A stretch of 64,000 bases of DNA from Anthoceros angustus. Lineage: Eukaryota > Plantae > Anthocerotophyta. The notes beneath the pieces are model-generated. The model had not been told where the DNA came from. It ran no database searches and saw nothing but the letters and a program-made list of their open reading frames with translations. The stretch spans positions 310,001 to 374,000 of the forward strand of contig MU008159.1 in NCBI GenBank assembly GCA_010909165.1, in the 5' to 3' direction. Of the stretch, positions 1 through 49,299 are shown in pieces. Position 1 is the first letter of the stretch. Each line of letters starts with the position of its first letter. Both the position numbers and the translations under genes were made by a program.

Positions 1-769
1 GGTGGCTACGATGCGAGTCAGTCTGGCGCAGGGACCGCGATTTGGGCAGTTAGATGAGTTTTGATAGCCCTCCGAACCGCGTTTGTTCCACGGAGGGTCC
101 GGAGGTCGCCCGAGATAAAGTGTGGGCGGGTGCAGAGGAAGAGTGTTGTTGAATACAATCGTGAGTTTTTGGAGCTGGTGATGGCCATACCGATATGAGT
201 GAAGCGAAACAGGCAGCTACACTCGAGGATTGAAGTTTCACGGTTAAAGAAGTGAAACTACGGACGCCGGACATTGCGGATGCAATGACACTAGCAAAGA
301 CGAGATGCCCTTTACTACGGTCGTCTGGGATAAGGGATGGGGCCTTTACGGATTACATTCGTTGCACAATAACTCCGTTGCCGATTAATTGTGATGTAAT
401 CTTGGGGATGGAGGTGGTGTATAGGAGGCACCCCATTCATTTTAGAGACGGATCACGAGCCATCGAATATCTTCAAACTCAAACACATTTGAGTAGGAAG
501 CGAGCTCATTCACAGGTGAGCACTTCGACAATACAACTTTTCGATTCAACATATTTCGGTGAGCGAGAATCGTGTGGCGGATGTCTGTTGCTGCTTCTTA
601 CTCGCTATTAATGTACAAGCGGGTGATGAGTTCCTTGCGACTTCTGCGAGACCACATTGCCAAGGATGCTCTGCAAGTTACTGGGATCTTGGGCGCATGG
701 ACTCAATCGATAGTCTTCTTCATTTCGAGGTAGGCTTTATGTTCCTCCACTACCACATGTTCGCCTTAT
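1..769 (+). mobile_element. Ty3/gypsy remnant, left arm (gag, protease fragment, RNase H C-terminus, pre-integrase); internally deleted
   Basis: Peptides across frames: gag SVVEYNREFLELVMAIP (~140-190), protease CDVILGME (~390-413), RNase H IEYLQTQ and RQYNFSIQHI..ENRVAD (~460-580), pre-integrase FRGRLYVPPLPHVRLI (~724-770). No RT motifs seen. Confidence 0.8.
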
Positions 770-799
770 AACACGATATCTTGTGAAGGGGGTTAATAT
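770..799 (+). repeat. Left TIR of element 1 (TSD TTAT 766-769)
   Basis: CGATATCTTGTGAAGGGGGTTAATAT (774-799) matches the reverse complement of 13988-14012 apart from one G in a homopolymer. Confidence 0.9.
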
Positions 800-2980
800 T
801 CACGAAGGGGTTTCACGGAAATATCACGAAGGGGTTTGACATGGGTCCATAACTCGTGGTTATAGAGGTATGAATGAATATAGGCGAGAAAAGAAGGGTG
901 AACTTTCGTGTGAAGCATTGACATGAGGTTCATTTCTTGCCGGTGAAGGGGTTAAGGTGCAAGAGGTAACCCTATTTTGGGTGCATATAAGACCCATGTG
1001 AAGGACCATTCACGCCACCGCTGGTCTTCCTAGCCAAAACACCCTTAACATTCATAAAAGGACGGTGATCGGTGGATGAGCTGCGAACCCGTGATGGCGA
1101 CCAAGGATGTTTGAGGAGTAGGGCGGCCGGCGCCGGCCCCTGGCGTTGACCTATTGGGAAAGGCGGGTAGTAGCAGGCCTTTGCTCATTGTGTGTACACA
1201 AAGACTATATGTGGGGTGAGTGGGTGGCTTCCGCACACCATAAATTGAGCCCAAGAATATAATCACATTGTTAAAACCCAAAGACTACAATCGGCATACG
1301 GAAAACGTGGATAGTTCCGCGTCATCGCACACAAACATGCCGTGAGCTACACATGTGTTGCTGTAATATGCCGAATGCCAAGCCATTAACTACTACCATA
1401 CTTCCTCCATGTCCTCCCGCTTATGGAAATGGCTTGCACATCGAAAATTCTATAGCATGTGAAGTCTACGAGGTATCTGAGAAAGCAGCACAACCAATAT
1501 TCTATCATGGGCCTACACTCTTTTGAGACATATGTGTCTGTGAGGAGCACTGAGCACGCATAGCCTCCCAAGATCCCATGCAAGATGACACAACATTGAG
1601 GGCTTTCTACTCTTCTCCGGGCCACTCCATCATCTTGTTGGGTCCGGCATCATGACCATCATCTTCACTATCCTCGGTGGGACTTTCACTCATTGGTTGA
1701 ATGAAGCCTCAACGCAATGAACTTCTCTTTGATTGCCTTCTTATCTACAGTACAAGTGTCTCGCGTAGTCAATGTGAACCCATAATAGAGGATGACAGTT
1801 TCGTGAACAAAAACCTTTTGGATATTTTTTGATGGATGGATTTCGCCCCTTTTCCCTGCATTGCTCGCAGTCCGTGGCATCCTCCGATTAATATTCACGA
1901 AGGGGTTTCACGGAAATATCCTCAAGGGGTTTGACATCCGCAACTCGTGGTTATAGAGGTATGAATGAATATAGGCGAAAAGAAGGGTGAACTGTGTGAA
2001 GCATTGACATGAGGTTCATTTCTTGCAAGAAGGGGTTAAGGTGCAAGAGGTAACCCTATTTTGGGTGCATATAAGACCCATGTGAAGGACCATTCACGCC
2101 ACCGCTGGTCTTCCTAGCCAAAACACCCTTAACATTCATAAAAGGACGGTGATCGGTGGATGAGCTGCGAACCTGATGGCGGCTGTGGACCAAGGATGTT
2201 TGAGGAGTAGGGCGCCGCCGCCGGGCGCCTCTCGCGCTCGACCTATTGGGAAAGGCGGGTAGTAGCAGGCCTTTGCTCGTGTGTACACAAAGACTATATG
2301 TGTGGGGTGAGTGGGTGGCTTCCACCATAAATTGAGCCCAAGAATATAATCACATTGTTAAAACCCAAAGACTACAATCGCATACGGAAAACGTGCCCGA
2401 TCGTTCCCGCCACATATCGCACACAAACATGCCGGGCTACATGTGTTGCTCGCCAATATGAATGCCAATGCCATTAACTACGCCATACTTCCTCCATGTC
2501 CTCCCGCTTGTACAGTGGAAATGGCTTGCATCGAAAATTCTATAGCATGTGAAGTCTACGAGGTATACAGAAACGGCACAACCAATATTCTATCATGGGC
2601 CTACACTCTTTTGAGACATATGTGTGAGCAACACTCAGCACGATAGCCTCCCAAGATCCCATGCAAGATGACACAACATTGAGGGCTTTCTACTCTTCTC
2701 GACGCCACTCCATCATCTTCACTGGGTCCGGCATCATGACCATCATCTTCACTATCCTCGGTGGGACTTTCACTCGGTTGAATGAAGCCTCGCAACGCAA
2801 TGAACTTCTCTTTGATTGCCTTCTTATCTACAGTACAAGTGTCTCCGCGTAGTCAATGTGAACCCATAATAGAGGATGACAGTGAACAAAAACCTTTTGG
2901 ATATTTTTTGATGGATGGATTTCGCTCCCCCTTTTCCTCGCATTGCTCGCAGTCCGTGGCATCCCTCCGATTAAATATTC
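793..2980 (+). repeat. Tandem duplication, ~1095-bp unit (793-1887 / 1888-2970)
   Basis: Near-identical copies with many small indels; junction microhomology TTAATATTC. Confidence 0.95.
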
Positions 2981-5900
2981 TTCTACGTACCTTCCTTAAA
3001 TGCGCATCTGTGTTCGATTACGTACCAATGAACAAGGAAGTGAGGCTGTGGCGAATGCAATTGAACAGTAGTTACCTTGCCAATCCAAAAGGGTCTGTTA
3101 TGCGTGTCTGTGTCCGCGGGAACTGCAACAAACATCCCTGTCTTTATTTCCGCGATATCACCATTCCACCGTTCCATTTCCTGTTGTTGCCTCCCCCGTG
3201 TTTGGTATGCTCCCAAATACATATCTCGTTGTGGGAGGTCCCTTAGCAATGCCTCCTCCAGCACTGCCACATCTGGAACATGGAGAGGTTGAAATTTGCA
3301 TCCACTTCCGATCTTGAGTACCATTTCCAAGGATTACGTAGCACAAGGCCAATGTTGTTTTGCACAATAAGAATCTCCTCTTGGTCCAACGAGCTTCCCA
3401 CCATAAAACTCCGTGATGTCACATAAGGCCTAAGTTCGGAGACCATCCTTAAGATGGGCAACAGGCGATTGGTGATAATGTCACTGTGTTCCTTTTTATC
3501 CCCCTTGGATGCGGTGAGGCGCATTTATGTCGGAAGGACAAATTTCAAACTCAAACCCCTTCCGCTTTCCCATTGTGGCGAGGTGGAATCTTGCTTGCTC
3601 GATAGCAATCACGAACCCGGTCCGCTTTCTCTTCACGTGTTATTTTAAAGCGGTCTTTGGAGCGATAAGTTGTTCAATCTCTTCTGGCTCCATAAGTGAG
3701 GCCTCTCGGCCTTGTCTAATAGGCCACACATATGAAAGTCCGCCACTTGATCAATATCTTTACCTCACGGTGTGACGTGTACGCATGCATCAAGATCTCG
3801 ACAATGCGGGCGGTGTGAGCCTCTTTATGTCTCAAGCTTTTGAGAAGCAAGAAAACATCCGTCGATTTGATCATGCGTATGCGACCAAAAGGAATCCCAC
3901 TTTCACTTTTTCAAAAGTACCCATATCAACAAGCATGTTCAGATATGCAAAAAGCAGCTGGTTCTTGTTCTCCCTGCATGTGTTGTCCAGTTGCAGATAC
4001 AAAACTCTTGGCAGCACCCCCTCGTAATTATGTATAACGTCCTGAATGATGGTGATCGTCAGATTTGCGTCGTTCCGTAAATTCGCATAATGCAAATAGG
4101 CTCTCGCTTTGTGCGTGTAGTTGTGAATCATACACCCAACCACGTGGACTGAAATACGACACTCCTCTACGAGGTTTTTCGGCCACCGGAGAAGATGAGG
4201 AATCTCTGTCTTTTTCTGGTCCATTCCATCTATGGATAGTAGCATATACTTATGTGGCTCCACATAGCTCTTGCTCCTGTGTTTAGACATTTTCTCCGCT
4301 CGGTGGAGGCGCGATGTGCTTCCAAAGCGACTGAAATTTCTCGTGCCACAAACAAATGTCCTAGTCGAAATATATCAAAATCCTCAAAACGGCATCCGTT
4401 AGGCCCTCCAAATGAGCAGAGACGCCGCCGACCTTAACAAGGAAACTTCTTCACATGCAAGAATGCTTATTTGCGGGACGCTCATCCAAATGGGGATACA
4501 TGGCGATAAAGTGGGGGCGGGCGGAGTGGGGGCGGCCGGCCGGCGCCCCTCACAATCTCCTCTTGGTCCAACGCTTCCCACCATAAAACTCCTGTGATGT
4601 CACATAAGGCCTAAGTTCGGAGACCATCCTTAAGATGGGCAACTGCGATTGGTGATAATGTCACTGTGTTCCTTTTTATCCCTTGCGGCGTTGAGGTGTC
4701 GGAAGGACAAATTTGAAACTCCAAACCCCTTCCGTTTCCCATTGTGGCGAGGTGGAATCGCTTGCTCGATAATCAAAATCACGAACCCGGTCCGCTTTCT
4801 CTTCACGTGTTATTTTAAAGCGGTCTTTGGAGCGATAAGTTGTTCAATCTCTTCTGGCTCCATAAGTGAGGCCTCTCTCGGCCTTGTCTGCCACATATGA
4901 CCGAAAGTCCGCCACTTGATCAATATCTTTACCTCGGTGACGGGTGTCGCATGCATCAAGATCTCGACAATGCGGGCGGGGTGTGAGCCTCTTTATGTCT
5001 CAAGCTTTTGAGAAGCAAGAAAACATCCGGTCGATTTGATCATGCGTATGCCCGACCAAAAGGAATCCCACTTTCACTTTTTCAAAAGTACCCATATCAA
5101 CAAGCATGTTCGGATATGCAAAAGCTGGTTCTTGTTCTCCCGCATGTGTTGTCCGATTCGGATACAAAACTCTTGGCGACCCCTCGTAATTATGTATAAC
5201 GTCACGAATGATGGTGATCGTCGGTTGTCGTTCCGTAAATTCGCATAATGCAAATAGGCTCTCGCTTTGTGCGTGTAGTTGTGAATCATACACCCAACCA
5301 CGTGGACTGAAATACGACACTCCTCTACGAGGTTTTTTGGCCACCGGAGAAGATGAGGAATCTCTATCTTTTTCTGGTCCATTCCATCTATGGATAGTAG
5401 CATATACTTATGTGGCTCCACATAGCTCTTGCTCCTGTGTTTAGACATTTTCTCCCGCTCCTGGTGGAGGCGCACGGTGCTTCCAAAGCACTGAAATTTC
5501 TCGTGCCACAAACAAATGTCCTAGTCGAAATATATCAAAATCCTCAAAACGGCATCCGTTAGGCCCTCCAAATGAGCAGACATCGCCGACCTTAACAAGG
5601 AAACTTCTTCACATGCAGAATGCTTATTTGCGGCAGCTCATCCAAATGGGGATACATGGCGAGATAAAGTGGGGGGAGAGGGAGGGCGGTGGGCGCCGGC
5701 CGACCGCGCCCTCCAATCTGCTTTCCCGATTTGGGGCGCGCCGGCCGCCCGGCCAGCGCACGTCCACGCTCCCCAGTGCATTTCGGTTGGGAAGCCGTGG
5801 CGGCTCATCTTTGCCTCTCGATTGGGAGGGAGTGAGCAAGCGGCTTCGTGGTCGTGGAAACCACTAAATACCGGGCGGCACCTGAAGCATTCCGTTTGGA

Positions 5901-6700
5901 AACCAAACACAAACACGGTTATAGAACATGCACGTACATGCATCTCATATGAGCAATTGGTATTGGAAGAGCACATCCGCTCCATCGGGTAGTGAAGCAA
6001 ATCCATAGCGGTGAACAACCTCATGGAGGACACATTGGTGCAAATTACCTTGATCTTCCTTGTGCATTGTGTTCGATAGTGCTCTTGGACTGCACAAAGC
6101 GAGCATGTTGAAAACCTGTTGGACTTGAGATTTTCTTGTTGGGAAGTTGCTTCTCCACAATTTCAAGAACCATGGGTACTTGACGTGGCGAGTGTTAGAG
6201 TTTTTTGGACGCTTGTACAAGGTCCATATTTCCAACTTTGTATACGTGTCGGGCGATTAAAACATCCAAGTTTGGCGGCCGCTCCATAAACGTGGCGTTG
6301 TCCATCCACGAAAGGGCATCCATCGCATCGTCAGTGCCTTGGGTTTGGTTCAAATCCATCCCAAGGTGATTCCGAATGACTCGCTCTTTAGCTCCTCATA
6401 CCTCCTGTGGCCAAGACAATGTACTCTTCTAAAAGCCTTCAAGCGGCCGGCGCGCTCGCCCCATGACATGTGTCACCACTTTCGCCTATCACCTCGGGAT
6501 CCGATGGGTGAACAAGAGCTGCAGATATGTCTCCTGTTCTGTCTCCCCATGAAGAAAGTACCGTTGCTCTTGAAATCGCGCTTTCCCCAACCGCAAACAC
6601 ATTTTTATGCAACAAGGCTTCTTGAAATCAGATCATTGTATCCCCTTCGCTTTTCAACGACACTCCAGCTTCTCTTCTTGATGATATAACAACGCCCTTG
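2601..6700 (-). pseudogene. Frameshifted DDD/DDE-type transposase, Sola-like (family assignment inferred)
   Basis: Ordered motifs on minus strand: KAFRRVHCLGHRRYEELK (~6443-6387), FLKLWRSNFP then RFSTCSLC (~6170-6092), H..ER.KMSKHRSK, LLSIDGMDQKK, YLQLDNTCRENKN, GFLLVGHTHDQIDRMFS (ORFs 3871-4290, 5000-5344, 5074-5511), then C-terminal FWIGKV..VHWY and an acidic tail. Confidence 0.85.
3372..5719 (+). repeat. Tandem duplication, ~1182-bp unit (3372-4553 / 4554-5714), duplicating the transposase core
   Basis: Two copies of the DGMDQ/QLDN/GHTH core; junction microhomology AATCT. Confidence 0.95.
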
Positions 6701-6714
6701 TTGGAGCCAGAGAC

Positions 6715-7320
6715 TCACTCAAAGGCTTGGGATGGAAGGAACGACATGCATCGTGGTGGCGCTCGAATCTTCATTGTCGTCAATGGGACCTTCCTCAACC
6801 GGTGAGCGGACGCAATCAATCTCCGAAAACAAACCACGGCGTGCAACCGTCGATGTATCTGGGAGAACGCCATACGCCATTCGGGAAGCTTGAGCGTCGG
6901 TTGGATGGGCTTCCCTCCAACATCAAATTCGATGCAAATTCCTAGGTGTTGGAGGAACACCAGCGGACCATGGCGGGGATGGCGGCGTCTTGGCGTATCT
7001 GGAACAACAATATCGGAAGAATGCATCAAAATCCCACAACCGAGATAGACTAGCGTCCGTTCCCATATGGAAAAATCATCCTCTACCTTCATTATCAACA
7101 CGTCTTTCGGAATGGCAAAACGCACTCGACGGTGATGCCCGAGTTCGAGGACGTGGTGGCACATCAGTCTACTCGCTTCTCCATCTTTACGGAAACGGAC
7201 ATTGTGAAGAGAAACCTTCTTCCCATTGTTCATCCACGCAACCGGATGCACTAAGCGAACTCGATCCGAAAACAAGATAGGGGTGAAAACCAAGTAATCC
7301 TTCCAAAAGGCCGAACTCAA
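6715..7320 (-). CDS. Unidentified 201-aa ORF upstream of the transposase (possible N-terminal domain or separate gene)
   Basis: Open frame with globular-looking composition, same strand as and immediately 5' of the transposase motifs; no family recognised with confidence. Confidence 0.35.
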   Translation of the reverse strand: MSSAFWKDYLVFTPILFSDRVRLVHPVAWMNNGKKVSLHNVRFRKDGEASRLMCHHVLELGHHRRVRFAIPKDVLIMKVEDDFSIWERTLVYLGCGILMHSSDIVVPDTPRRRHPRHGPLVFLQHLGICIEFDVGGKPIQPTLKLPEWRMAFSQIHRRLHAVVCFRRLIASAHRLRKVPLTTMKIRAPPRCMSFLPSQAFE

Positions 7321-7651
7321 ACCTCTTCGCTAGGTGGTGTGGGTGAGCCGCAACATGGTATCGCACAACTTGTAGAAGAGCGTCGATTGAAACCACACTC
7401 GCGTCGTTTGAAACCATCGCCGGCGGGTCTTGGAAGAGACCTCAGTGTGAGGAAAATGGTGAAGATGGCCATTGTCTTTATGGATAGCGTCGCGCATAGA
7501 TGGGTAGGATATTATGTTCCTCTGTAATAACGACAACATGATGGAGTTCACAATCTATATCTAACGGTATATCGCGCCGTCCTCCGCTTTTATTGTCCAC
7601 ATTGTGCCCCGGCCGTCACCCAAGTCAATAGGGTTATGGTTCATATCGTGG

Positions 7652-7732
7652 TTTATATCGGTATATGGATATCTTGGCATAAGTTAATACAGCATGTTTT
7701 TGGGCTATAAATACCGGTTGAGGAAACCCTAA
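7652..7732. promoter_or_regulatory. Putative bidirectional core promoter between divergent element-1 genes
   Basis: Plus strand: TGGGCT (7701-7706), TATAAATA (7706-7713), telo-box AAACCCTAA (7724-7732). Minus strand: TATAAA at 7652-7657. Confidence 0.4.
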
Positions 7733-7756
7733 TTACTATTTGTTTTCTCTTGCCAC

Positions 7757-9200
7757 TTGCCGTCACGGTGGGCGTTACGCCACTTCACTTGAGAATACGA
7801 GGAGCGTCTTGCTGGCGGTGTTGCCCGATTTGGAGAGGTGTCCGTCCACAATTCCACGAATCCTCCCAGCGCCCTTGGCTGGGATTCGGCTATCAGGCGG
7901 GCCGGGGTTGGGGAGGCAGGGCCGGGCATTCCTCGTGCATCAATCGGCGAGTGCGAGTGAGGTTCGTCTACTTCCATGTTAAACAATTGTGCCCTTCCAA
8001 ATTCGTGATGTGTGATGCAGGTTCATTCTTAAAGATGGCGGCGGCGGAGCAAGAAGGACTGGCGATTCGATCCTCCGATCCCGGCGGCAGAGAAGAAGGC
8101 AAAGCGATTGCGACGAAGACATCCATCGCGCGGACGAGGTTCCGATCGAGGAAGGCGGTGGAAGGAAGTTTGGGAGGCGCGCACATTGGAGGGGGCCATA
8201 TAGCCTCTGGCGGGCAAAATCAGGAGCATGTCTTGGGAAAACAAGCGAGCAGGCTGGCGGGCAAGGGCGGAAGGAGGAGGCAAGGCTTCAAAGCATCCGG
8301 TGCACCAATTCGTCGCCATTCATATGAAGAGAATGCACATCCATGATGGGTGGCGGATAGACCCTATTGTCATTGTGCGAAGATTGGATGCTAGTCCGGG
8401 ATCCGCACCGGAGGTTGAAGCAAGACATGGACCCCTTGCTCAAACTACGGATAATGGGGTATCGGGGCTTTGCCGTCACGGTGGAGCGTTCGCCAGCACT
8501 TCCACTTGAGGAAAGTGAGGAGCGTCTTGCTGGCGGTGTTGCCCGATTTGGAGAGGTGTCCGTCCACAATTCCGAATCCTCCCTTGGCCGCTTGGGATTG
8601 CAGCTATCAGGCGGGCGCTCGGGGTTGGGGAGGCAGAGCCGGGCATTCCTCGGTGCATCAATCGGGTGCGAGTGAGGTTCGTTCTACTTCCATGTTAAAC
8701 AATTGTTTTGCCTTCCAAATTCGTGATGTCTTGTGATGCGGGGTTCATTCTTAAAGATGGCGGCGGAAGGCGGAGCAAGAAGGACTGGCAGGGCGATCCT
8801 CCGATCCCGCGGCGGCGGCGAGAAGAAGGCAAAGCGATTGCGAAGACGAAGACATCCTAAATCGCGACGAGGTTCCGCGCCGAGAGGAAGGCGGTGGAAG
8901 GAAGTTTGGGAGGCACGCACATTCGGAGGGTGGGGGCCATAGCCTCTCTGGGCAAGCAAAATCCGGAGCATGTCTTGGGCAGAGCAGGCGGGCAAGGAGG
9001 CTGGAAGGAGGAGGCAAGGCTTCAAAGCATCCGTGCACTTCCCGCCATTCATGAAGAGACTGCACATCCGCATGGGTGGCAGATAGACCCTATTGTCATT
9101 GTGCGGAAGGATTGGATGCTAGTCCAGATCCGCACCCAGGTTGAAAGCAAGCATGGACCCCTTGCTCAAACTACGGATAATGGGGTATCGGGGCTTTGCC
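7757..9200 (+). repeat. Tandem duplication, ~713-bp unit (7757-8469 / 8470-9200)
   Basis: Repeated GCCGTCACGGTG...GGGGCTTTGCC block; junction microhomology TTGCC. Confidence 0.95.
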
Positions 9201-11430
9201 AAATCGAGCAAGGTGTAATGGGCAAACATGGACATGAAGCGAGGGGGAGTTCACGCTATTTGCACCACCGCCATACGAGTTCGATCGTCATCCAGACCCC
9301 GAGTTTCTGGTCTTATGTTCTCGGCCTCCAAGGATTCAACGCCAAAAATGTGCACCTCCGAATAGTGGAAGAGTTCGCGAATGCATGCGACACGAGTTTC
9401 AACAACGACAACGTATGCGAAACCCTCCGACTTTGATGACTAACATTCAACTTGTTTGTTTGTTTTCCCACCACCTTTGGTAGGAATGGCCCTTATAAGG
9501 GCAATCGTGGGAAGATAAGCAAGGCAGTCATTGATCATAGGAGAGAGCATCGATGAGAAGGGTCGCACACATCAAAGAATGGTTGAAGCGGCAAGCAGCT
9601 TCCGAGCGAACTTGGCCCATCCGATGAGGAAGAGGGCCCGATTCTGACGTCTTTGGGACATTCGATGATGAAGTCTCTGGGGCAGGCGAACATAGGGATG
9701 CGGCAATTTTACCTTGGCTTGGCATGGGCCATCTATGAGTGTGCACACGGATGTAGTGAATCGGGGAGCGCGGCCCGCGGCGCAGGCAAAAGTGCGGGGC
9801 TCGGACTTGGCCACTCCGGATCCCAACCGGTTTATCCAGTTCGAAGGAGATAGCGGGCGGGCGGCCGTGGCATACCTCCATCCACAAGAGCCCTTCCGGA
9901 CGCGGTGGAAGAGGTGGACGTTGGAGGCAGAGAGAGGAAGTGGGTGCGGGGGACACAGGTATGGACGGAGGAAGAAGGCGGGCGGCCGGCGCCTCCACCA
10001 TAGGAGAGAGGCGACCAGCCGACGCTCAAGGCGCGCCCTGCGGTGTTGGATTCCAGGGGTGCGAAGAAACCCGGCGTGGAAGCACGAGAGGAGGAAGTGG
10101 GTGCGGGGGACACGGTATGGACGGGAGGAAGAAGGCGGGGCCGGCCGGCGCCCTCCTCTCCATAGAGAGACGACCAGCCGGCGGCTCAAGGGGCAAGCGC
10201 CCTGCGGTGTTGGATTCCGGTGCGAAGAAACCGTGGAAGCACGGAGCGGGGGAAGAAAAAGAAATCAAAAAGGCGGGCAAGGAGGCTGGAAGGAGGAGGC
10301 AAGGCTTCAAAGCATCCGTGCACTTCCCGCCATTCATGAAGAGACTGCACATCCGCATGGGTGGCAGATAGACCCTATTGTCATTGTGCGGAAGGATTGG
10401 ATGCTAGTCCAGATCCGCACCCAGGTTGAAAGCAAGCATGGACCCCTTGCTCAAACTACGGATAATGGGGTATCGGGGCTTTGCCAAATCGAGCAAGGTG
10501 TAATGGGCAAACATGGACATGAACGAGGGGGAGCCGGAGTTCACGCTATTGTGCACCACCAGGCCATACGAGTTCGATGCCGTCATCCAGGACCTCGAGT
10601 TTTACAGGTCTTATGTTCTCAGCCTCCAAGGATTCAACGCCAAAAAATGTGCACCTCCAGCAATAGTGGAAGAGTTCCGCGAATGCATGCGCCAGCACAC
10701 AGTAAGTTTCCAACAACGACACTGTTATGCGAAACCTTCCGACTTTGATGACTAACATTCAAGTTGTTTGTTTGTTTTCCCAGCCACCTTTGGTAGGAAT
10801 GGCCCTTATAAGGGCAATCTGTGGGAAGATAACCGAGACAGTCATTGATCATAGGAGAGGCATCGATGAGAAGGGTCGTGCACATCAAAGAATGGTTGAA
10901 GAGGCGGGCGGTCAAGACTTCCAGAGCGAACTTGGCCCCCGATGAGGAAGAGGGCCCGATTCACGACGTCTTTGGGACATTCCGATGATGAAGTCTCGGG
11001 GCAGGCGAACATAGGGATGCGGCAATTTTGGCTTGGCGCATGGGCCATCTATGAGTGTGCACGGATGTAGTGAATCGAGGAGGCGGCCGGCCGGCCTGAG
11101 CGAAAAGTGCGGGGCTGGACTTGGCCCTCCGGATCCCCGGTTTATCCGGTTCGGAAGGAGATAGCGATCGGGCGTGGGCCGCACCTCCATCCACAGAGCC
11201 CTTCCCGGACCGTGGAAGAGTGTCTTGACGTTGGAGGCACAGAGGAGGAAGTGGGTGCGGGGGACACGGTATGGACGGAGGAAGAAGGCGGAGGCGCCGG
11301 CCGGCGCCCTCCTCGTAGGAGGAGACGACCAGCCGCCTCAAGCAAGCGCCCTGCGGTGTTGGATTCCAGCGAGGTGCGAAGAAACCCGGCGGTGGAAGCA
11401 CAGGAGGAAGAAAAAGAAATCAAAAAAGGG
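8986..11430 (+). repeat. Tandem duplication, ~1285-bp unit (8986-10270 / 10271-11430), with a nested ~157-bp duplication at 9934-10245
   Basis: First ~250 bp of the two copies read as identical; later parts differ by indels. Confidence 0.95.
10513..10755 (+). CDS. Orphan ORF fragment (ORF-A) inside element 1; frameshifted copy near 9228-9436
   Basis: MDMNEGEPEFTLLCTTRPYEFDAVIQDLEFYRSYVLSLQGFNAKKCAPPAIVEEFRECMRQH has protein-like composition; preceded by MDPLLKLRIMGYRGFA. Confidence 0.35.
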   Translation: MDMNEGEPEFTLLCTTRPYEFDAVIQDLEFYRSYVLSLQGFNAKKCAPPAIVEEFRECMRQHTVSFQQRHCYAKPSDFDD

Positions 11431-11544
11431 CACAAGAGGAAGTGTTTGGTGGCATTCCCATGCATATTTTGACGAAGAACGCCTGCGACGCGATCACGAT
11501 GCACCCCTCACTCGCCTAAGGGATTGACTTACGGAAGAAGGTTG

Positions 11545-11930
11545 TCATGGAGCAGTGCTAGTGAAATTGGAGAACTTACGACCCGACCGCATATTCGCGG
11601 ATCGTGATTCCGAGGGTTGACGAGGCATGGGCCAATTATCCGGCGAGTTATTTCGAAGGAGGATAGAGGAGGGTGTATTGCCACTATTATGTATGATTGA
11701 TCCAAGTGAGTGCAATGACCTCGGCAAGTTGGAATTTGGAAGAGATGGCGGGCGAAAAAATATGTTATGGGGTTCTTGGTGGGAACCACACTTATGCGAC
11801 CATGAAACATCTATGCGATATATCACCGGGGAAGAAGAGGTTCCAATGTTGAAGCGCATGTCTATTGCGGGCTTACTATACGCAATGCGAGTCCACCCAT
11901 CACAACACTATCGGACAAACGGAAGAAGAT
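11545..11930 (+). pseudogene. ParB/Srx-like domain (frameshifted), 5' of the methyltransferase-like region
   Basis: VLVKLENLRPD, DEAWANY, RRRIEEGVLPLLCMIDP, VLGGNHTYATMKHL (GGNH at 11778-11789), later HN motif; order resembles the ParB N-terminal fold. Confidence 0.6.
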
Positions 11931-12089
11931 GAACTTCATTGAGCGGTCCGATACTTAAGAGATGAGCTTTTGATAGCAAAACGAGAAGGATGACAATGGC
12001 ATGGAAGTACAATCGTACACAAGGTGCTTGATTGAGGATGATGAAGGGCGAGCGATGTGTATAAGGAACAAAGTGGATAACCGCACACA

Positions 12090-13381
12090 CATTTTATGCA
12101 TTGCCAAGCGGGAAGGAAAGGTATGGGCCAATGTGGACTCCATTTTCTAGTGGGAGGCTGGAGAACTCCGGACGGAAGAAGCATCTACCGGGAGCAAGCA
12201 AGGAAAGGGAAGCGCAAGTTGGTGAGCGAGAAGCAAATGGACACGTATGCGTGGCCAAGGACATGTTGGCAAAGCCATGGAAATCGTTCAAGGCATACTG
12301 GGAGAGTGCGGTCGGCAAATTCGTCGCTGACGAGAAAGGTGTTAAGCGGCACGATTGATTTGAAGGGCATGGATGAGGAGATCACGCGGAAGAAGTTTCA
12401 TGTCATACAAGTGGCGATGGTCAAGCACAGGGTGCTCTTCATTTGAGGAGGTCAGAGGAATATCCGTTGCATTCCAGACGATCTTGTCGGTTTCAAGCTT
12501 TTTTGGAAAGGTGAGTTTCTTGTCCATGCCATGCGCAAGGTCATGGGGCGCGGCGCCCTCCATTCTTTCCACTTTGGACTAACAAACTTGTGGTTCGCGA
12601 CAAGGACATTGAGGTCTTGTCCAAACTTCCGGATGCCTTCAAGATTTTATTTTGAGGTGAACAATTGGAAAGGGGCTGGAGGACGGCGTGCTTTAGCGGA
12701 CAAGGACCTTGAGGAGGATGGAGGTGTTCAGTGTGCCCTCCTCGGATAAACAAGACCAAGTGGGAGATTTGGCGGACATGCGTGGATTTCGAGGGCCGAC
12801 ACACTTATGGTGATGGAGCGTTCAAGGGGTTTCAAATTGGGCCCTTGGACAAAGCGTGTTGACAAGCGGATGATGGACCTTTGCGAGCTTTGCGGAAAAC
12901 AACTTGGATGAGTTGAGAATGATTGTCATGCATGGTGTGGAGGAGGCTCACACCGTGAGTCCATGCGAAGGTGGTGCAAGAAAGGGGCTTGGTCTCATTT
13001 GTATGGGACAAGACCAACATGAACAATAGCAGGTGGGTTGAAACCGTGGAATATGTCACATGGGTTGGGGAATGAAAGATGGGTTCACGGGGATAGAGTT
13101 CCAATGATGCCCAATGCCATGCGGCACTTTCAACAATGGGAGGTCGTGATCGCTCACGATACGGTTGTGAAGAAGCAGTGTACATGTCCCACAAGTGGTG
13201 GTTTGCCCATACGAGGCCTCTGGGCCTTATGATGAAACTTATCCGAACCTTCTCGAGAGGGATTGGATTTTGGATGTATGCTCGGGGTGGGACAACGTTC
13301 TTGGCGGCTACTATGCGGATGTATTGCTATAGAAGGCGACTTGAGGTGTGCGGATATATTGCACAAAGGATTTGGGCATGA
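12090..13381 (+). pseudogene. Beta-class DNA N4C/N6A methyltransferase-like gene (frameshifted)
   Basis: Reconstructed order: ADMRGF..LMVM-(D)VP-RGF (motif IV position, ~12807-12833); FVWDKTNMNNSRWVETVEYVT (~13000-13060); RPLGLMMKLIRTFSR-GDWILDVCSG-GTTFLAA..CIAIEGD.EVCGYIAQRI (13213-13381). This matches the KP..L..LI..S..GD.VLD.F.GSGTT..AA...R..IG.E C-terminal SAM-binding block of N6_N4_Mtase. Confidence 0.8.
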
Positions 13382-13987
13382 GGTTACGCACGATCGAAGA
13401 AGAATCGACATTTGACGCCCACCGCAGAGGACTTGCGCAATTGGCAAGGAGGTGTATCGTGAGAAGGACTCCTGCAAGCTCGGGGTTGTTTCCTTAAGCA
13501 TAAGGCGTGAAGACCAAAAGGAGCACTTTTGACGGAGGACAGCAATCCTTGGATAGCGTTTGGCAGCCTTCCACGACCCGACGGCGAGACAAGACTAAGC
13601 GAAGACACTAGGGCCTTGGGGAGAGCAGCGCTTCGATGAAGAGGAAGTGGGCGCATTCATCGCTATTGTGATGGATTCGAGTTTGCTCTACCCGGACGAG
13701 TCCCAAGTTAGTAGGGAGTAGGCTTAGTGATCTCATGTCTGTGCATCTGCGCTTTTTAGTTCGCAATCACTTATGGACCCGTTGCATTGAGGCAATTGAT
13801 GTCTTCCCATGTTCCAAAGAATCAATGAAAGCCGCCGGCCGCGCCCCCGCACTGCTTTGTTCGCGAAAAGAGTTTTTCTCAATTCCTACTGTTGGAACAT
13901 GGTCGTCTGCTTTTAAAAAGAGCCAAAACGCGTATTTCGGACCGTGAATTGTGCTAAGGGGTTTTCATTTCACGGAAGGGGGTTCGG

Positions 13988-14017
13988 ATATTAACCCCTT
14001 CACAAGATATCGCGGTT
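13988..14017 (-). repeat. Right TIR of element 1 (TSD TTAT 14018-14021)
   Basis: ATATTAACCCCTTCACAAGATATCGCGGTT is the inverted copy of the left end. Confidence 0.9.
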
Positions 14018-15190
14018 TTATACTATTTCGTGAGGCTCATGAGACTCGCAGACATCAGGCATTCACCGTACACTTTACAACTTGCGTGTACGGTATCACG
14101 AAATGGCGTGATGATCACTACTTGATCCATCTTTGTGGCATTTGTCAACGGATCAAGGCTCCCTGACTAAGGTACCGGTCTTCTTCAGCCTATGCCCATT
14201 CCCTTACTCCGTGGAGCAAGTCACTCTTGATTTCGTAGTGGGTTTACCTTGACCCCTGTGATATGATGCGCCCTTGTGTTTACCGACAAACTTACGAGAA
14301 TGATCCACTTAGCCCCACTACGTAGCATGTTCAGCGATGGATGCGGTGAGCTATACCTTCGTTATATCTGAGCTCCATGGCTTGCCTCAGCATAGTAAGT
14401 GATCGGGACCCCGGTTTTCTCGATTTGGCAAGCTATGCATCGCATGGACTACAAACTAAATTGTATCTATCAACAAGCCACCCGGTGATGGAGCTACAGG
14501 CGGGCTATTCAAACCATTGAAGATCTTCTTGAGCATATGTCGATCAGGAAAAATGGGAGCAATATCTACATTTAGCGAGTTTGCTTTCAACAACTCTAAG
14601 AATGCCCAGGAACAACACCCTTTTTGCTCTTTATGGATTTCATCCCGGGACCATGTTACAACTGCTTCTGCTGTGACGCGCACTGCGGCCATGGACTTCC
14701 TCCAAGCAGGGCTCGGGTTCTTGACAAGTTCGGCAACATGTGTTTGAGGCACAAAATCGGCGGATCCTACAAACCAACCGCCATCGGCGACCACGACATT
14801 TTCCACAGCGATCGGTGCTATTGTCTACTCGTTTTCTACCCCCACTCCTTGATGGATCCGGAAATTGGCGATCGATGGATCGGACCTTTTCCGTACAGTC
14901 ATCGGCCCTGCGGCCTATCGCCTCGCCCTTCCTCCTTCCTACAAGTGCCACAACGTCTTTCCCTGCTAAAGCCGTTCCTAGGCCCCTCCTTCCCGACCTC
15001 CACCGTCTTGGACTTGGAAAACCCATGTATGAAGTGGACCGCATCCTCAAACACCGCACCCTTGGCTGTCTTGAATATCTACACTGCGGCTATCCTCTAT
15101 CGAGGCCACAGGAGCAGCGCGCAACCTTTTCCCATTGTGGCGCCTTGCGCCTACCATGCCTCCCGTCGTTTCGAGGCCGAAACCACTTCA
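14018..15190 (+). mobile_element. Ty3/gypsy chromovirus integrase with GPF motif and chromodomain, right arm
   Basis: ILFREAHE..CGICQRIK (zinc finger), QVTLDFVVGLP, EFAFNNS, RWIGPF, SLLKPF, then MYEVDRILKHR..LEYL..GYPL (chromodomain, ~15025-15150). Confidence 0.9.
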
Positions 15191-15203
15191 TCCCCAGGTG
15201 AGT

Positions 15204-15480
15204 TGTTAGGCGATATGAGTGTTAGGCAACATACGGACACATATGTATACCTTGCCCGATACGATGTCTTGTCTGAGCCACCGCCATGGGTGGATATAAA
15301 TGGAGAACCTGACAGAAAGGCAGGCTGTGTAAGGCAAAGTTTTTGGTACTCTTCACGCCTCTGAGCTTAAGAGTTTGAGGCTTTGAGGTAGTTGTTCGAG
15401 GACAAATCAACCGCATCGAGGGCGGCTAATTGATGAGCAAATTGATCATGGCGTCGAGTTCCGGTTTAGGTATGTCACAT
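15204..15480 (+). repeat. Possible 3' LTR of the chromovirus
   Basis: TGTTAGG start just after the chromodomain and a possible TGTCACA end; no clear PPT and no partner LTR in the window. Confidence 0.3.
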
Positions 15481-18695: not shown

Positions 18696-20707
18696 TGACA
18701 CCACATTGCACGCTGGATTAATTTTTTCAAACACCGAATCTACCTAAAGTTGTGATGCTCCCGCATGCACTTGGTATCATAGTGCATGCACACATGCATC
18801 CATGCATTATCATGCTTTTGAAAACAGCTTTTTAAAACATACATAGTCACCTGGCCAGTCCTCGGCCTCGACAAGCATGTAGGACCATTTGCACCTATCT
18901 ATTTAATTAGTCCTTGGTCACTCAACAAACCAACCATTTGTGTCTTTGTTCTCGAGGACTTTTGTACCTTTTTCCATTTATCTTATAGTCTCTCAGGCTT
19001 TCGCAAAAAAAAAACAAACAAACAAACAAACAAAACCATTTGCCATCTATTGAATTAGTCCTTGGTCCTTGAAAAGCAATACCATTTGCCATCTATTTAA
19101 TTAGTCCTTGGTCCTTGACAAGCAATGCCATTTGCAATCTATTTAATTAGTCTTGGGTCCTTGGTCCTTGACAAATAAGATCTTTTACTATTTATGTAAT
19201 TCGTCCTTGGTCCTCGACATCCAAGACCATTTGCTTAATGTCAAAATAACTATCTAGCTAGCTATACATGCATTATACAATACTTTAGGTAGCCATGCCA
19301 TGACATTGTCTTGCTCGATTGTCTAGTGGAAGAGGTAGGACAGCAAGTTCTTGCGAGATCATTCTCCAAGGAGGACCACTGCCACCCACATGAACGAAAG
19401 TAGAGAGACGAGGGTATACACCGAATACATTATGATGGATCCGAGCAGCAGATGCGTATGTGGAGGTGCACAAGGAGGCCAAGAGCTAGTGTTGGGCAAA
19501 GCGTGGGCGCGGAGTGGAGGCAAGTCAGTGGAGTGCAAGTGCAGCGAGGTGAAGGCGCAGTGGAGGAGCAACAACGGCGAGCGTCAGTGGATCCAAGTGA
19601 GCCTGGGATGGAGCTGGGCCGAGATCAACCCGTGTGCTTGCTCATGACCCGCAGATGTTGTCTCTCAATAGGTAATGGCCAGACAATTTTCCCATCCGTG
19701 GAGTTGGACATGGCCATCCCGCAGACGCCCCGGATGCACCCTCAAATTAGCAATAGGAGTAGAGATCCACTTTCTAGGGGCCCATATCGTCGCCGAGAGT
19801 TCCACATTCAAATGGGCACGCCTTGGGACTCCACCCTAGGAGTCCGGCCGACGCTTGGGAGCGCAACCCTTAGTAGCCCAACCCCTTGGAGGCCGAACCC
19901 TTGGAGCCCGACACCTTGGAACCTAAGCCCTGACTCCGCGTTACATCTCTCACGAAGGCCAACCCCCTATTAGCCCGCCGCATGGAATAAGTAAAAAAGC
20001 ATACGCCCGGAGTCTAATTCCTGGAGCTAGGTGTACGCGTGGATTGCCACACTCTTGTGTGTACTCTTTTGAGAGTAATTAATTGAGCATCAAAGTGGTT
20101 AGTACATGGCCCGCTACTTGGAGGCCTAGTATCGTGTTTTGTAATAATCGTGTTATTTATAAAATAAAGTTCCACTCCATAACAAAACAACACAAAAAAG
20201 TTCCTTCTATTTTATGAGATTCCTCAAGTTCCTTGGGTTCGGAGTGTATTGACGAGAACCTAAGCCGTGTGTTGCTTGCACGCATTAAATATAGTACGTA
20301 ATTATCTACGCTTTGAGGAGATATCATGCTATAGTTAATTTGACGTACTCTAAGTTGTTGTGGGTACAATTAGCCCTTGTCGTCTTCTTTAACTCATCTT
20401 CCTAAGAAGAGAAAAACAATTACAGACTCTTTAAGCACATGGTGCGCACGAGGCAGACCAAGAAGAGGATCGGTAGCATTAAAATTTTAGTCTTAATGAA
20501 GGATGGGAGAAACTCTGTATGGAGGAAAGCAAGTAAGGATTCCATACTTTGAGACAAGTGTGAGGCGGTCGGTTTAAGATAGGACAAAATGTAGAACCAT
20601 TTCGATATATTACGGTAGCTTGTTGCTGCAAACGGGTAATCAATTGAGGGAGAGAAGATGAAGGGGATGTCGCGCCACAGTTGCATAGTCGTCATGGTAC
20701 CTAAACT
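18696..20707 (+). repeat. Dispersed partial copy of the ~3.7-kb unit found in tandem at 53080-64000
   Basis: Colinear with ~54710-56790 from TGACACCACATTGCAC to GTCATGGTACCTAAACT; includes three copies of the 46-bp minisatellite (19036-19170). Confidence 0.9.
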
Positions 20708-27300: not shown

Positions 27301-28467
27301 GAGGCCTCCGGCTGCACCTGTTGCAGCTCCTTCCTGTCATCATCATGCGGTTAGTTCTCCCACCTTCACATGGAGGCTCACGTTTTCTTCCCTCACTTCT
27401 CGTAGCTGGTTGGTCATCTTTGCCTGAAGTTTCAATATAATTGAAAATATGCAGAATGTTTTTAATATAAATTGATTGAACTACATTTTCTTGATATATG
27501 TGTGTATATATGTTCATAAAAAGAACTCAATGTTTTAAACAACGCCAGAACGATGCTATCCAAACGTAACCCTAATGAACCGGTGTGTAGGTATTTAACT
27601 TAACTTAACTACCAAAGCCCTAATCATTATTCCAAGACATATATCTTAATACTCCCACTTGTAATGATTCGGGCACGCTCTAGACATTTGGTACCCTCTC
27701 GCCTCCCGTGAACGCAGCAGGCCCAAGATACTCGATCGCTCCCAGCGCCACATAACACTTATGGAGAGTATACAAACCGGTGTGATGGCGGTAGAGTGCG
27801 CCGCACTTATAACCCCTGTTCTTGGTTTCAAGATTGCTCGGTGAGCTCATCACCAAAAGATCGAACACCGATTCTCCTTGCGCCACATGTCTTGATCCTC
27901 GATCACACACAGGCGCCGCCCACGTGATGCTCGGGGCGATTCGCGCCAAGGACAACTACCAAAGATATGAAGTTGCTTGATGCTCGGTAGAGGAAGGTTG
28001 GCGGCCGCAAGGAACAACGAAAAGCTTTGGGCGCGAGCGCAGCTGGTTGAAGCCAACATGGCTGGTCCTTCCATCAATCCCGGCGATCACTCCTCGAACG
28101 AGAGGAGAAGGAGGAGGTTATGCCCTTCATCGGTGCCTCGATGTCTCATATTACAAAGAACCCAGCGGGCGTGTGCTGTGAAGCTTAACCCACGATGAAG
28201 AACTCGATTGTGACTTACGTGAGTTTCCATGTTCTCCAATCGGTACAAAGCTTGGGTTGGCCTTGATGAGCTAACTATAAAGAGGGTGAAGGTTCTTCGC
28301 TGCAGATGCTTACGACACGTCGTCGGTGTATACGATGAAGTGTCTGCTCCTCTTTAGCTCTTTATTTCATTGCTGTTTCTTGTTCTTGACAATTGTTTAT
28401 ATCTCCCACTTGTTGGGTGCAGAGTCCACAAAGAAGATTAAGGAGGAAAGGAGGCTGGAGGATGAAG

Positions 28468-39426: not shown

Positions 39427-40000
39427 CCGAGGTCACATTTGAAGCCTTTGCCACTTTTCGATTTAGCTTAGAAGCATTAAAGGAGGTCACAAAATGTGAC
39501 CGGATTCGAAGTGATATGAGGAAGTAAAGGGCAAGCATATCATCCTTGATAATCTCATTTGATGCACTTTCAAACAAGAGTTACAAGTGTCCAAGGTGTT
39601 TCTCTATTGATTCACCATCTTTCATCTTGCAAAGTTGTAAATTTATGAGCATCATCGACTTGTCGATTCTGCTGCATACAGTCTGAAGTTTGAACCCGGA
39701 TATCTCTGAAGTTGTACATCCGGATGTCATCTCGGCATCTCGAGGTAAGACCACTCGGATGAGGAACATGGCTGCTTGATCTTTGGCATCCCATGTTTCA
39801 GTAATCTATTTTCAATTTGTTGTGGGCGAGTTGAGACTCTTGGGAACTCTCTTCCCCAATAACCACCTTCGAGTTTCTTATTACAGGCTCCCTTCATGCG
39901 GATTACCCATATGTCGTAATCACGCCCACCAAACCTATCTTTTCCCTAAACCCTTCCCCACCCAAACTAGATGAGGATCGCCATTTTATTCCTTTGTGTT
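39427..40000 (-). pseudogene. Host copia gag, N-terminal part
   Basis: GRDYDIWVIRMKGA, WDAKDQAAMFLIRVVLPR, LCKMKDGESIEKHLGHL (UBN2-like). Confidence 0.85.
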
Positions 40001-44499: not shown

Positions 44500-46030
44500 G
44501 TGAGATGGACCACGGATGCGGCTCATGTGTCGGCTCCTCCTCCGCATCCGGCGTGCATATCCATGTACACGCGTGGAATGAATTACGCACACCTCTTATG
44601 CCTCGATAGAAATACAATTTCGGCCGACAACAAGGCACCATTAAAGATGACCCACTACACGCACATGCATCCAATATCCAGTCCCTTCCTTGGAGAATGT
44701 CTTGATAAGCTTCATCATCAAACCTAAAGGCGGTAGGGACGGACAACAAGTTTGTCAAGTGAATGATAAACCGACTTTTCACGTATGGTGGGCAATCACC
44801 GACCACCATTATTGAAAGTGCCGCAAAACATTAGGTAACATGACCCAGCAACTCGAGCTTTTCTTGACCCCCACCGGTGACATACTCCACCGTATCAAAC
44901 CCACCCTTGTCGTTGTTGACATTTGTCTTGTCCACACAAATGAAACAAGACCACCCCTCAGCACCACTTAGCATAGGCTCCGCACAATATGTGAATCTTC
45001 CACACCATGCATTATGATCATCTGATCGCTCGCATTCGGTCAAGTCATGGAAGGAATGCAAAACATTACCAACTTGCCAAATATCAAACCTTCCATCCTT
45101 GGGCCCTTCTCGAATCCACGTGGGACATCCATCACAAGCAAAGAGTAACTCCTCTTCCTCACAAAACCTCGCATATCCGCATCTCGAGCATGAATAAATC
45201 TGTACTTTTTCTCCGGTGTGGGGCGGTGGTGCAACAATCCTCTTCAATGTCTGTCTGCGAGCTCTGTGCTCATCCTCCAAGCCCTTCCAAGTGTTGACCT
45301 CATAAATGAGCTGAAAGTTTTCGGGCACTTGGTAAGGACTTCAATGTCTTTGTTGCACAAAAGCAGGATGCTTGTCATTAGCATGCGGAGGGAGGCGGCA
45401 TCTTGCGCCTCCCCGCCCTCGGGCATCTAGACCGGGTGGGCGCGGCATGCGGCGTCCTCCTCGAGCAACCTAATTGGGGGGTGGCGCCGGCGGCGCCTCA
45501 ACTCCCGCGGGCGGCCGGCATGCAGGCGCCCATGACAAACGGTGAGGGAGGAGGAGGGCGCGGCATGCGGCGCCTCTCCTCCTCCTCCGCCCCCATACCA
45601 TATAAAGTTCTAAGAAACTAGAGAGTATGATAACATACCTTTCCCTCGAAAGCGATGAACAGCGACTACTTCGTCGGTGGAATGTTGTGTACTCTTGCCT
45701 CACCATCTCAAAAGATGAACATCCTAAGTGCTTCGCCATGGCCACTTGGATGATATGCAATTTCTTGCAATATAATTTCATCCGACATTCCTTCAAATCC
45801 ATAAGGCCTGAGAACTTTCTGGCATTAAGCATTTGCTGCCCGCCTCCCCCTCAGAATACCTTGAAAGCAACGCCATGGCTTTGTCTCTGCATCTCCTGGG
45901 CTTCACCAATATACCCTCAACTTGTTTTCTGCTCACCGCTTCCGCTTGCCTTTGCTCTTTTGCTCAATCCGCCGCCACATGTTTCTTCCTGCTCGCAAGT
46001 CACAAGCTCCCACTTTAAAAACGTGATGTT
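44500..46030 (-). pseudogene. Second methyltransferase-like gene, homologous to 12140-13381 (frameshifted)
   Basis: Colinear peptides: KKLHIIQVAMAKH vs KKFHVIQVAMVKH; NKDIEVLTK.PENFQLIYEVNTWKG vs DKDIEVLSKLPDAF..FEVNNWKG; ADMRGF..SLLVMDVPRGF (45112-45132); DKTNVNN..DTVEYVT; PLGLMMKLIKTFSKEG-DWILDACACSGSSL..GRNCISIE (44590-44731). Confidence 0.8.
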
Positions 46031-46129
46031 GGCTTCCAGTTTCATACTCTACCGCCTTACTAGATAGGTTGGTCGAACACCGGTCGACCGCTCGCTATGT
46101 AATGAAGGCGCCACTGGTCCATGCTTTTA

Positions 46130-46890
46130 CGTGGTCTACCGCTTGTCTTCCAAAATACCGGAGGCGCCATCATTGATACCCTAGCATGCACACTCCTAAT
46201 ATGTTTGAACATTTGTCACATGGGATGGCATTGGGTCCATGTGTTCCCTAGTTCTGTCAAGGTTAGTCACTTGTTTCTACCGCTTGTAGCGGTAAGCGGT
46301 GGCGCCGCATGCGGCCTCCTTCTCCACCCCGATTCACTCCTCATGTGTTTACGTTTTTGAAGGGATGGCATTTCGGCGGGGCCATGCGTCCACGAGTTAC
46401 TGCAAGGTAAGTCACTTGTTTCTCTTGTTTGTAGAAAATATAGGCGATGGAGGCAGCATGCGGGGCCTCCAGCGATAATCTAGCCCTTGCGATTCGCTCC
46501 TCATATGTTTCAGCGTTTGTCGGATGGGGCGGCATTTCGCGGGTCCATGTGTCCTAGTTCTTTCAAGGTAAGTCACTTGTTTCTACCGTGTAGGGCGGTG
46601 TAAGCGGTGGGCGCGGCATGCAGGCGCCTCCATTTACCCCGCTGATTCACTCGCATATGTTACAGCGTTTGTCGGAAGGGCGGCATTTGGCGGGACCATG
46701 CGTCCACATCTGTCCAAAAGTCACTTGTTTCTACCGTGCATGAAGATATATACGGTGGGCGGCATGCGGCGCCTCCGTGTTCTCTCTCCACCGCAGTTCA
46801 ATATCCATATGTTTGATGTTTTCGGAAAGGCGGAATTTCGAGTCCATCGTCCAAAAGTTCTCTCTAAGGTAAGTCAATCTCCTCACTCTT
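46130..46890. repeat. About five tandem ~150-bp repeats inside element 2
   Basis: GTCACTTGTTTC at 46266, 46411, 46572, 46720 and a degenerate copy at 46873. Confidence 0.85.
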
Positions 46891-48900: not shown

Positions 48901-49299
48901 CTATCCTATCCGCTACCCCTAACTGGACCTTCTAATTAATCTTATTTATCTATTTCCCTATTGGTGAGCATATATAGTGGATATCCCTTTATTCTAATTT
49001 CCTTTTTCGAGACCTCGTCGGACCTACCCATGACCTTTCTTTCGACCTCTGGCGTGGTGTGGCGACCTACGGTAGTGCCGACCTACAGCCTTTCGGTTGC
49101 CCGCCTTCCACCTCTTTTGGGGTCGTTTTTGTTCTTCTCTGATATCCTCTTGCCTTCTAAAATATTCCTACAACTCCGCTTCAAGATTCTCGGAAAATTC
49201 TGGCATGCCTCTCTTCAATCGTTTAGCCAAAAAAAAAATCAAACTTGTTTCCTCTCTTTTGGGTGGTTGCCCAAACTTTTCGTTCACATACTCCCCTCC

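What the first reader, a model, noticed from the sequence alone, without database searches (positions are those of the whole stretch)
12770..13381. Methyltransferase-like protein has an atypical catalytic motif (DVPR instead of DPPY)
Element 2 reads SLLVMDVPRGF in one frame, and element 1 has GTGATGGAGCGTTCAAGGGGTTTC, which aligns to the same motif with indel-type changes. Motif I also reads D.C.G.G or DACACSG rather than D.F.G.G. Loss of the motif IV aromatic residue usually impairs amino-methylation. The protein may be a dead enzyme reused as a DNA or SAM binder, or may have changed chemistry. Seeing the Arg-Gly-Phe in both diverged copies argues against a sequencing error.
Basis: partly seen in the sequence, partly recalled or inferred. 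Interest (0 to 1): 0.8.

Follow-up and report, generated by a model that had tools for sequence, protein, structure and literature searches.

The report
Plant transposon methylase with arginine pocket
Two related genes in plant-like DNA, one inside a cut-and-paste jumping gene, encode a bacterial-type DNA-methylase fold whose catalytic pocket has arginine where an aromatic residue belongs; the swap is real and kept by selection, so the protein likely binds its own element's palindromes rather than methylating DNA in the usual way.

Summary
The motif is real, but the literal DVPRGF lies in a second copy (45129-45112, minus strand). At the given coordinates the window is garbled by dropped bases. 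Short-read contigs match copy 2's DVPR with no substitution, and one contig indicates D-A-P-R for copy 1's family. The two families use different Arg codons. A frameshift-aware beta-class methyltransferase profile puts motif IV on DVPR in 6 of 8 settings. All 63 unbiased prokaryotic references end the motif in Y, F or W. The domain is under purifying selection and keeps its SAM-binding motifs, so the motif I oddity is mostly ordinary.

Copy 1 is a ParB-like plus methyltransferase-fold gene in a Sola1-type transposon (770-14017). The element has the same 3' terminus (CGGTT), 4-bp duplication length and opposite-strand layout as Ectocarpus Sola1-1_Ec32. Each family carries its own palindrome. 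Best reading: a SAM-binding, likely non-methylating binder of its own element. An active variant is not excluded. This scan found the same gene class before on other DNA, also in this genome. New here is the conserved Arg.

The parts
770..14017 (.). Element 1: Sola1-type DNA transposon; the span includes about 4 kb of 84-91% identical tandem duplications that are likely assembly stutter
   Evidence: 18-nt perfect inverted repeat 774-791/13995-14012; right end CGGTT as in Ectocarpus Sola1-1_Ec32; flanks rejoin into one reading frame resembling a Gypsy integrase; duplications
766..769 (.). Left target-site duplication TTAT
   Evidence: register chosen from the termini
14018..14021 (.). Right target-site duplication TTAT
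5000..5353 (-). Fragment of a DUF7869-type putative transposase, on the strand opposite the accessory gene (duplicated at about 3372-4561)
   Evidence: PF25273, E 4.6e-13, 49.6 bits
11560..11900 (+). Predicted ParB-like N-terminal domain (VLGGNHT at 11772-11792)
   Evidence: profile score 20.2 vs null max 11.1; end-to-end 4.7 vs null max -7.3 (profile seeded from a weak hit of this stretch)
12511..12599 (+). Predicted spliceosomal intron, same position as in copy 2; acceptor AG not intact in the read
   Evidence: no RNA data
12600..13400 (+). Copy 1 beta-class amino-methyltransferase-fold domain (motif IV, then X, I, II)
   Evidence: 24.8 bits vs null max 11.3; upstream half adds signal, z 4.9
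12816..12833 (+). Copy 1 motif IV, garbled in the window; family reading D-A-P-R-G-F (Arg codon AGG)
   Evidence: one contig's loose end; alignment to copy 2
13214..13340 (+). Copy 1 motifs X, I (DVCSG-GTT) and II (CIAIE): predicted SAM pocket
44590..46050 (-). Copy 2 of the gene; no ParB exon, transposase or termini found for it in the window
   Evidence: (32.5 bits)
45112..45129 (-). Copy 2 motif IV D-V-P-R-G-F (Arg codon CGT)
45354..45638 (-). Predicted intron of copy 2, holding three GCATGC-centred palindromes
4528..13846 (.). Element 1 palindrome family (18 bp, G/C only, centred on GCCGGC) at 4528/5691, 5734, 10134/11289, 13830: 6 hits, about 4 distinct sites once duplicated segments are merged
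   Evidence: Markov-resampled mean 0.01
45438..46775 (.). Copy 2 palindrome family (centred on GCATGC) at 45438, 45510, 45555, 46300, 46609, 46755; a seventh fuzzy hit at 45483 lacks the core
   Evidence: 7 hits here, 0 elsewhere in the window; resampled mean 0

Best explanation
This is a transposon accessory gene joining a predicted ParB-like domain to a beta-class amino-methyltransferase fold whose motif IV reads D-[VA]-P-R, and the protein is likely a SAM-binding, little- or non-methylating DNA binder that would recognise its own element's palindromes to shield or organise that element. Shown: the fold homology, the Arg, its conservation, the transposon setting of copy 1 and the family-specific palindromes. 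Inferred: the SAM pocket still binds cofactor; the domain dimerises as beta-class enzymes do, which suits a palindrome; Arg replaces base stacking with a grip on base or backbone; the bound complex keeps host silencing off or recruits transposase. No binding or activity was measured.
For: Arg confirmed by short-read contigs in two families with different codons, CGT and AGG. The aromatic residue is present in 28 of 28 and 35 of 35 unbiased prokaryotic references and is described as stacking the target base (PMC4738411, PMC10406627; passages). Purifying selection: 38 synonymous vs 42 non-synonymous codon changes, null mean 22.9, 0 of 2000 simulations reach it. Motifs X, I and the acidic motif II residue are kept. 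Each family has its own palindrome. Precedents: predicted-inactive methyltransferase domains in DIRS1 elements; ParB-like genes beside inverted-repeat arrays in red algal transposons.
Against: Asp and Pro of motif IV are kept, which an active enzyme would need and a dead one need not keep. D-x-x-R is an active motif IV in RumA/TrmA. The N-terminal half does not match the profile on its own. A second profile put motif IV on DVPR in only 2 of 4 settings. The survey covers two families in one genome and one run. Element 1 shares its palindrome type with 4 fuzzy hits outside it. CpG content gives no clear sign of protection.
Confidence: 0.5

Rival explanations
1. An active variant amino-methyltransferase: Arg would stack on the flipped base by cation-pi contact while Asp and the backbone carbonyl activate the amino group, marking the element's own palindromes. 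For element 1 the mark would be 4mC, since its palindrome has no adenine.
For: Asp, Pro, Arg, Gly and Phe are all kept between families, and the SAM pocket looks intact. Position 2 varies in canonical references too (L or I in 5 of 28). Self-modification was proposed for the algal class (PMC12477816 passage). Marchantia has active beta-class 4mC enzymes, though with TSPPY.
Against: 0 of 63 unbiased references have a non-aromatic fourth residue. I recall that Tyr substitutions cut activity sharply in Dam-type enzymes (recalled; one search gave no paper on it).
Confidence: 0.3
2. Changed chemistry or substrate: a RumA/TrmA-like D-x-x-R pocket acting on a pyrimidine C5, or on RNA or protein.
For: RumA D363/R366 and TrmA D299/R302 form an active motif IV, with Arg bonded to the target ribose (PMC1904294 passages).
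Against: Those enzymes need a catalytic Cys in motif VI. The stretch aligned there in copy 1 reads M-I-V-M-H-G, and copy 2 matches it. The motif order is the permuted beta type.
Confidence: 0.1
3. Artefact or neutral decay: the Arg is a read error or a mutation in dead copies, or motif IV lies elsewhere.
For: The window is error-rich. Motif IV placement wanders between 12775 and 12812 in copy 1 and left DVPR in 2 of 8 settings for copy 2. Two low-depth contigs are one base short in the motif.
Against: A contig matches across the motif without substitution. There are two Arg codons and purifying selection, and no canonical motif in either gene.
Confidence: 0.1

Closest known systems
Ectocarpus Sola1-1_Ec32 ParB-like + N4C/N6A methyltransferase accessory gene (PMC12477816; passages and supplement rows seen)
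   Same: Sola1-type element; CGGTT 3' terminus; 4-bp duplication; ParB-like plus methyltransferase gene on the strand opposite the transposase
   Different: Plant-like host; shorter element (13.2 kb in this read vs 21.5 kb); D-x-P-R motif. The Ectocarpus motif IV was not seen and no sequence comparison was possible
Red algal Plavaka PAG2/PAG3 (bioRxiv 10.1101/2025.02.11.637652; passages; supplements closed)
   Same: Transposon cargo with a PF01555 methylase, a ParB-like domain and adjacent inverted repeats; self-binding proposed
   Different: There ParB is fused to a 2OG oxygenase and the methylase to SET, in an EnSpm/CACTA-type element
Phage/prophage ParB-N6_N4_Mtase fusions (loci)
   Same: Same domain order, with a GNHT-type ParB motif; 20 of 21 methylase hits in the first 80 loci are fused to it
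   Different: 35 of 35 viral representatives keep DPPY. Their methylase profile fits the plant copies worse than a general beta profile, so they are not shown to be the donor
Beta-class amino-methyltransferases (YhdJ, CcrM, M.MboIIA, N4CMT, MpDN4MT1)
   Same: Motif order IV...X-I-II; SAM pocket residues
   Different: Fourth motif IV residue is Arg, not aromatic
DIRS1 methyltransferase domain and METTL14 (PMC4738411; passages)
   Same: Retained methyltransferase fold with a disrupted catalytic motif, in a transposon for DIRS1
   Different: Different clades: PCIF1-derived or MT-A70; retroelement or host gene
RumA/TrmA RNA m5U methyltransferases (PMC1904294; passages)
   Same: D-x-x-R at motif IV
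   Different: Unpermuted fold and a catalytic Cys in motif VI, which is absent here

Membership tests
Beta-class N4C/N6A methyltransferase (PF01555 type) | Homology over motifs X-I-II | tested here: met
   24.8 and 32.5 bits vs 122 null tiles, max 11.3; direct Pfam scans of the broken frames were blank
Beta-class N4C/N6A methyltransferase (PF01555 type) | Motif IV upstream of motif I | tested here: met
   end-to-end alignments; the N-terminal half alone is not above null
Beta-class N4C/N6A methyltransferase (PF01555 type) | [DNSH]PP[YFW] catalytic motif | tested here: not met
   D-V-P-R and D-A-P-R; so filed as fold member, not as a canonical enzyme
Beta-class N4C/N6A methyltransferase (PF01555 type) | Methyl transfer to N4C or N6A | not testable with these tools
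   needs an assay
ParB-methyltransferase transposon accessory proteins | N-terminal ParB-like domain | tested here: inconclusive
   above null for copy 1, but the profile was seeded from this stretch; no Pfam hit; not found for copy 2
ParB-methyltransferase transposon accessory proteins | Inside a DNA transposon, opposite strand to the transposase | tested here: met
   copy 1; not shown for copy 2
Sola1 transposons | Terminal inverted repeats and 4-bp duplication | tested here: met
   left terminus imperfect in this read; TTAT does not fit the AWWT given for insect Sola1
Sola1 transposons | Sola1 transposase by phylogeny | not tested
   only a DUF7869 match; its link to Sola is recalled
RumA/TrmA m5U methyltransferases | Catalytic Cys in motif VI | tested here: not met
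   aligned stretch M-I-[VI]-M-H-G

The most novel reading that the evidence does not exclude
An active amino-methyltransferase with an arginine pocket, a motif not found in any reference examined, that a land-plant transposon uses to write 4mC on its own adenine-free palindromes and so pre-empt host 5mC silencing, each family with a matched protein and site.
Probability: 0.2. Interest if true: 0.8.

Novelty: new variant of a known kind. Interest (0 to 1): 0.42.

Why it matters
The published idea for this class is that the transposon methylates itself. A conserved D-x-P-R pocket says either that these plant versions gave up methylation and act as sequence-specific binders, or that amino-methylation can run without the aromatic residue. 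It also supplies a direct test: two families, two palindromes, one defined residue. The class itself is already in print for algae, which limits the surprise.

Tried and rejected
No plant homologue could be fetched, so motif IV was not surveyed across species. Blank: the search for homologous proteins, representatives, Atlas, PDB with window queries, phage tblastn with a whole frame, Pfam/PHROGs on the broken frames. The queries were frameshifted, so these blanks say nothing about absence. Metagenome and viral DNA patterns gave 0, 11 and 3 matches; the 14 were chance. No whole genome is held. No RNA holder listed. PF02195 was absent from 5 viral records. CpG observed/expected was 0.87-0.90 in the elements, 0.75-0.81 in four other stretches, but 0.88-1.04 in the flanking Gypsy: no clear signal. 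No ParB exon, transposase or termini were found for copy 2. Structure prediction was not run, because no unbroken reading of the gene is available. The pattern of contig substitutions upstream was only partly three-periodic (8 of 15 gaps) and is not used. Literature searches that might have shown this motif variant in print listed nothing on it; I saw listings and abstract starts only.

Full report
Setting. The window is eukaryotic, repeat-rich and full of dropped bases. No prokaryotic genome is held for it, and it has several tandem duplications at 84-91% identity. Contigs of one short-read run, X1, mostly add letters the window lacks: 10 of the 12 indel rows shown (68 more not shown) and 3 of 3. 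X1 may be the same sample as the window, so it controls for read error but is not independent biology. Earlier scan notes guess a hornwort host; I did not test that.

The observation. DVPRGF reads in one frame at 45129-45112 on the minus strand. This is copy 2, outside the finding's coordinates. It aligns with the garbled stretch at 12810-12833 in copy 1. Five X1 contigs were laid on 45040-45220. One spans the motif (318 nt, depth 60.5) with 0 substitutions and 4 extra letters, all outside it. Two low-depth contigs (5 and 11), probably one variant, keep the Arg-Gly codons but are one base short. Two do not reach the motif. For copy 1's family, one contig's loose end before 12823 plus the aligned letters reads D-A-P-R-G-F. 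So the motif is D-[VA]-P-R, with Arg as CGT in one family and AGG in the other.

Is it motif IV? I built a profile from 28 beta-class methyltransferases: E. coli YhdJ plus viral relatives, 30 representatives of which 2 misassigned fragments were dropped. I aligned it to DNA allowing frameshifts. Motifs X-I-II score 24.8 bits (copy 1) and 32.5 (copy 2), against a maximum of 11.3 in 122 other tiles. The N-terminal half alone does not exceed the null. End-to-end alignment puts DPPY on DVPR in 4 of 4 settings for copy 2; in copy 1 it wanders from 12775 to 12812. The upstream half adds signal in copy 1 (z 4.9, 25 shuffles) but not clearly in copy 2 (z 1.9). A second profile, from 84 ParB-methylase fusions, fits worse (copy 1 7.7, within null; copy 2 19.4). 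It chose DVPR in 2 of 4 settings and non-motif text in the other two. The placement is likely, not certain.

How unusual. The fourth residue is Y, F or W in 28 of 28 references and in 35 of 35 viral fusions picked by ParB patterns. A further 49 of 49 genome fusions have DPPY but were partly picked by that motif. Position 2 is more relaxed (L or I in 5 of 28). Motif I is near ordinary: Cys at the Phe position in 3 of 28 references, and the motif II Glu is kept in both copies.

Selection. Between the copies, 19 ungapped blocks (440 nt) of the domain show mismatches of 32/15/58 by codon position and 38 synonymous vs 42 non-synonymous codons. Simulations with the same frame-picking rule gave a mean of 22.9, and 0 of 2000 reached 38. 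The upstream exon gave 16 of 2000. The family was conserved as protein while the two lineages diverged; whether these two copies are intact cannot be told.

What carries it. Copy 1 lies in an element from 770 to 14017. It has an 18-nt perfect inverted repeat near the ends and a TTAT duplication, and its flanks rejoin into one frame resembling a Gypsy integrase (family label recalled). A DUF7869 domain (E 4.6e-13) lies on the opposite strand. The right end is CGGTT. The supplement of PMC12477816 lists AACCG-CGGTT termini and a 4-bp duplication for Sola1-1_Ec32, the element whose accessory gene encodes ParB-like plus N4C/N6A methyltransferase domains on the strand opposite the transposase. Upstream of the methylase, VLGGNHT gave a weak hit (E 9) to an annotated phage ParB-like protein. 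A profile from its relatives scores 20.2 vs null max 11.1, and 4.7 vs -7.3 end to end; this is biased by the seed. In those 80 loci, 20 of 21 methylase hits are fused to the ParB domain, and such fusions match PF01555 (5 of 5) and PF02195 (4 of 5). Both copies have a predicted intron at the same site.

Palindromes. Prompted by earlier scan notes, I counted them. An 18-bp G/C-only palindrome has 6 fuzzy hits in element 1 (about 4 distinct sites) and 4 outside it: 3 in a G/C-rich patch near 35 kb and 1 in copy 2. A GCATGC-centred one has 7 hits around copy 2 and none elsewhere. Resampled sequence gives 0.01 and 0. Element 1's palindrome has no adenine, so any mark inside it would have to be on cytosine.

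Mechanism. In canonical enzymes the aromatic residue stacks the flipped base while the first residue and a backbone carbonyl activate the amino group (PMC4738411, PMC10406627; passages). Losing the ring while keeping the SAM pocket best fits a cofactor-bound binder of the element's own palindromes (0.5). Keeping Asp and Pro leaves an active, Arg-stacking variant open (0.3). RumA/TrmA show that D-x-x-R can be active but need a motif VI Cys that is absent here (0.1). Artefact or decay is unlikely (0.1). Binding, activity and function are all inferred.

Novelty. The class is published for algae. This scan reported it in other plant genomes and twice elsewhere in this one, several times with an eroded motif and once with DIPY; those notes are unchecked. 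What this finding adds is that the substitute is a specific, conserved Arg, confirmed by accurate contigs in two families. Six literature searches listed nothing on it. Iyer et al. 2011, cited, was not read, and bioRxiv supplements could not be seen; either may bear on this. Verdict: a real feature, a new variant of a known kind, interest 0.42.

Noticed in passing
window 1-765 and 14022-15300: A Ty3/Gypsy-like pol split by element 1; the integrase-like frame rejoins exactly across the insertion
   Followed up: partly
window 793-2980, 3372-5722, 7757-11426, 28461-32978, 39522-42415, 53080-64000: Head-to-tail duplications at 84-91% identity, likely stutter of an unpolished long-read assembly
   Followed up: no
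window 5900-11000: Further coding-like stretches inside element 1, possibly a third gene; no informative Pfam hit for the 6 ORFs tried
   Followed up: partly
window 46191-46876: Degenerate tandem repeat of about 145-150 bp upstream of copy 2, several units holding the GCATGC palindrome
   Followed up: partly
window 47400-50500 (-) and 28400-42400: Fragments resembling Gypsy integrase/gag and Copia pol, judged by eye from translations
   Followed up: no
window 34775-35256: Very G/C-rich low-complexity patch with 3 fuzzy matches to element 1's palindrome
   Followed up: no
window 18696-20707, 54709-56795, 59529-61596: A repeated unit of about 2 kb containing 46-bp tandem arrays
   Followed up: no
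L088:1-1697: Mycobacterium phage Baee gp1, a GNHT-type ParB-like protein with no Pfam hit, sits next to a queuine tRNA-ribosyltransferase gene; relatives are often fused to a methylase
   Followed up: partly
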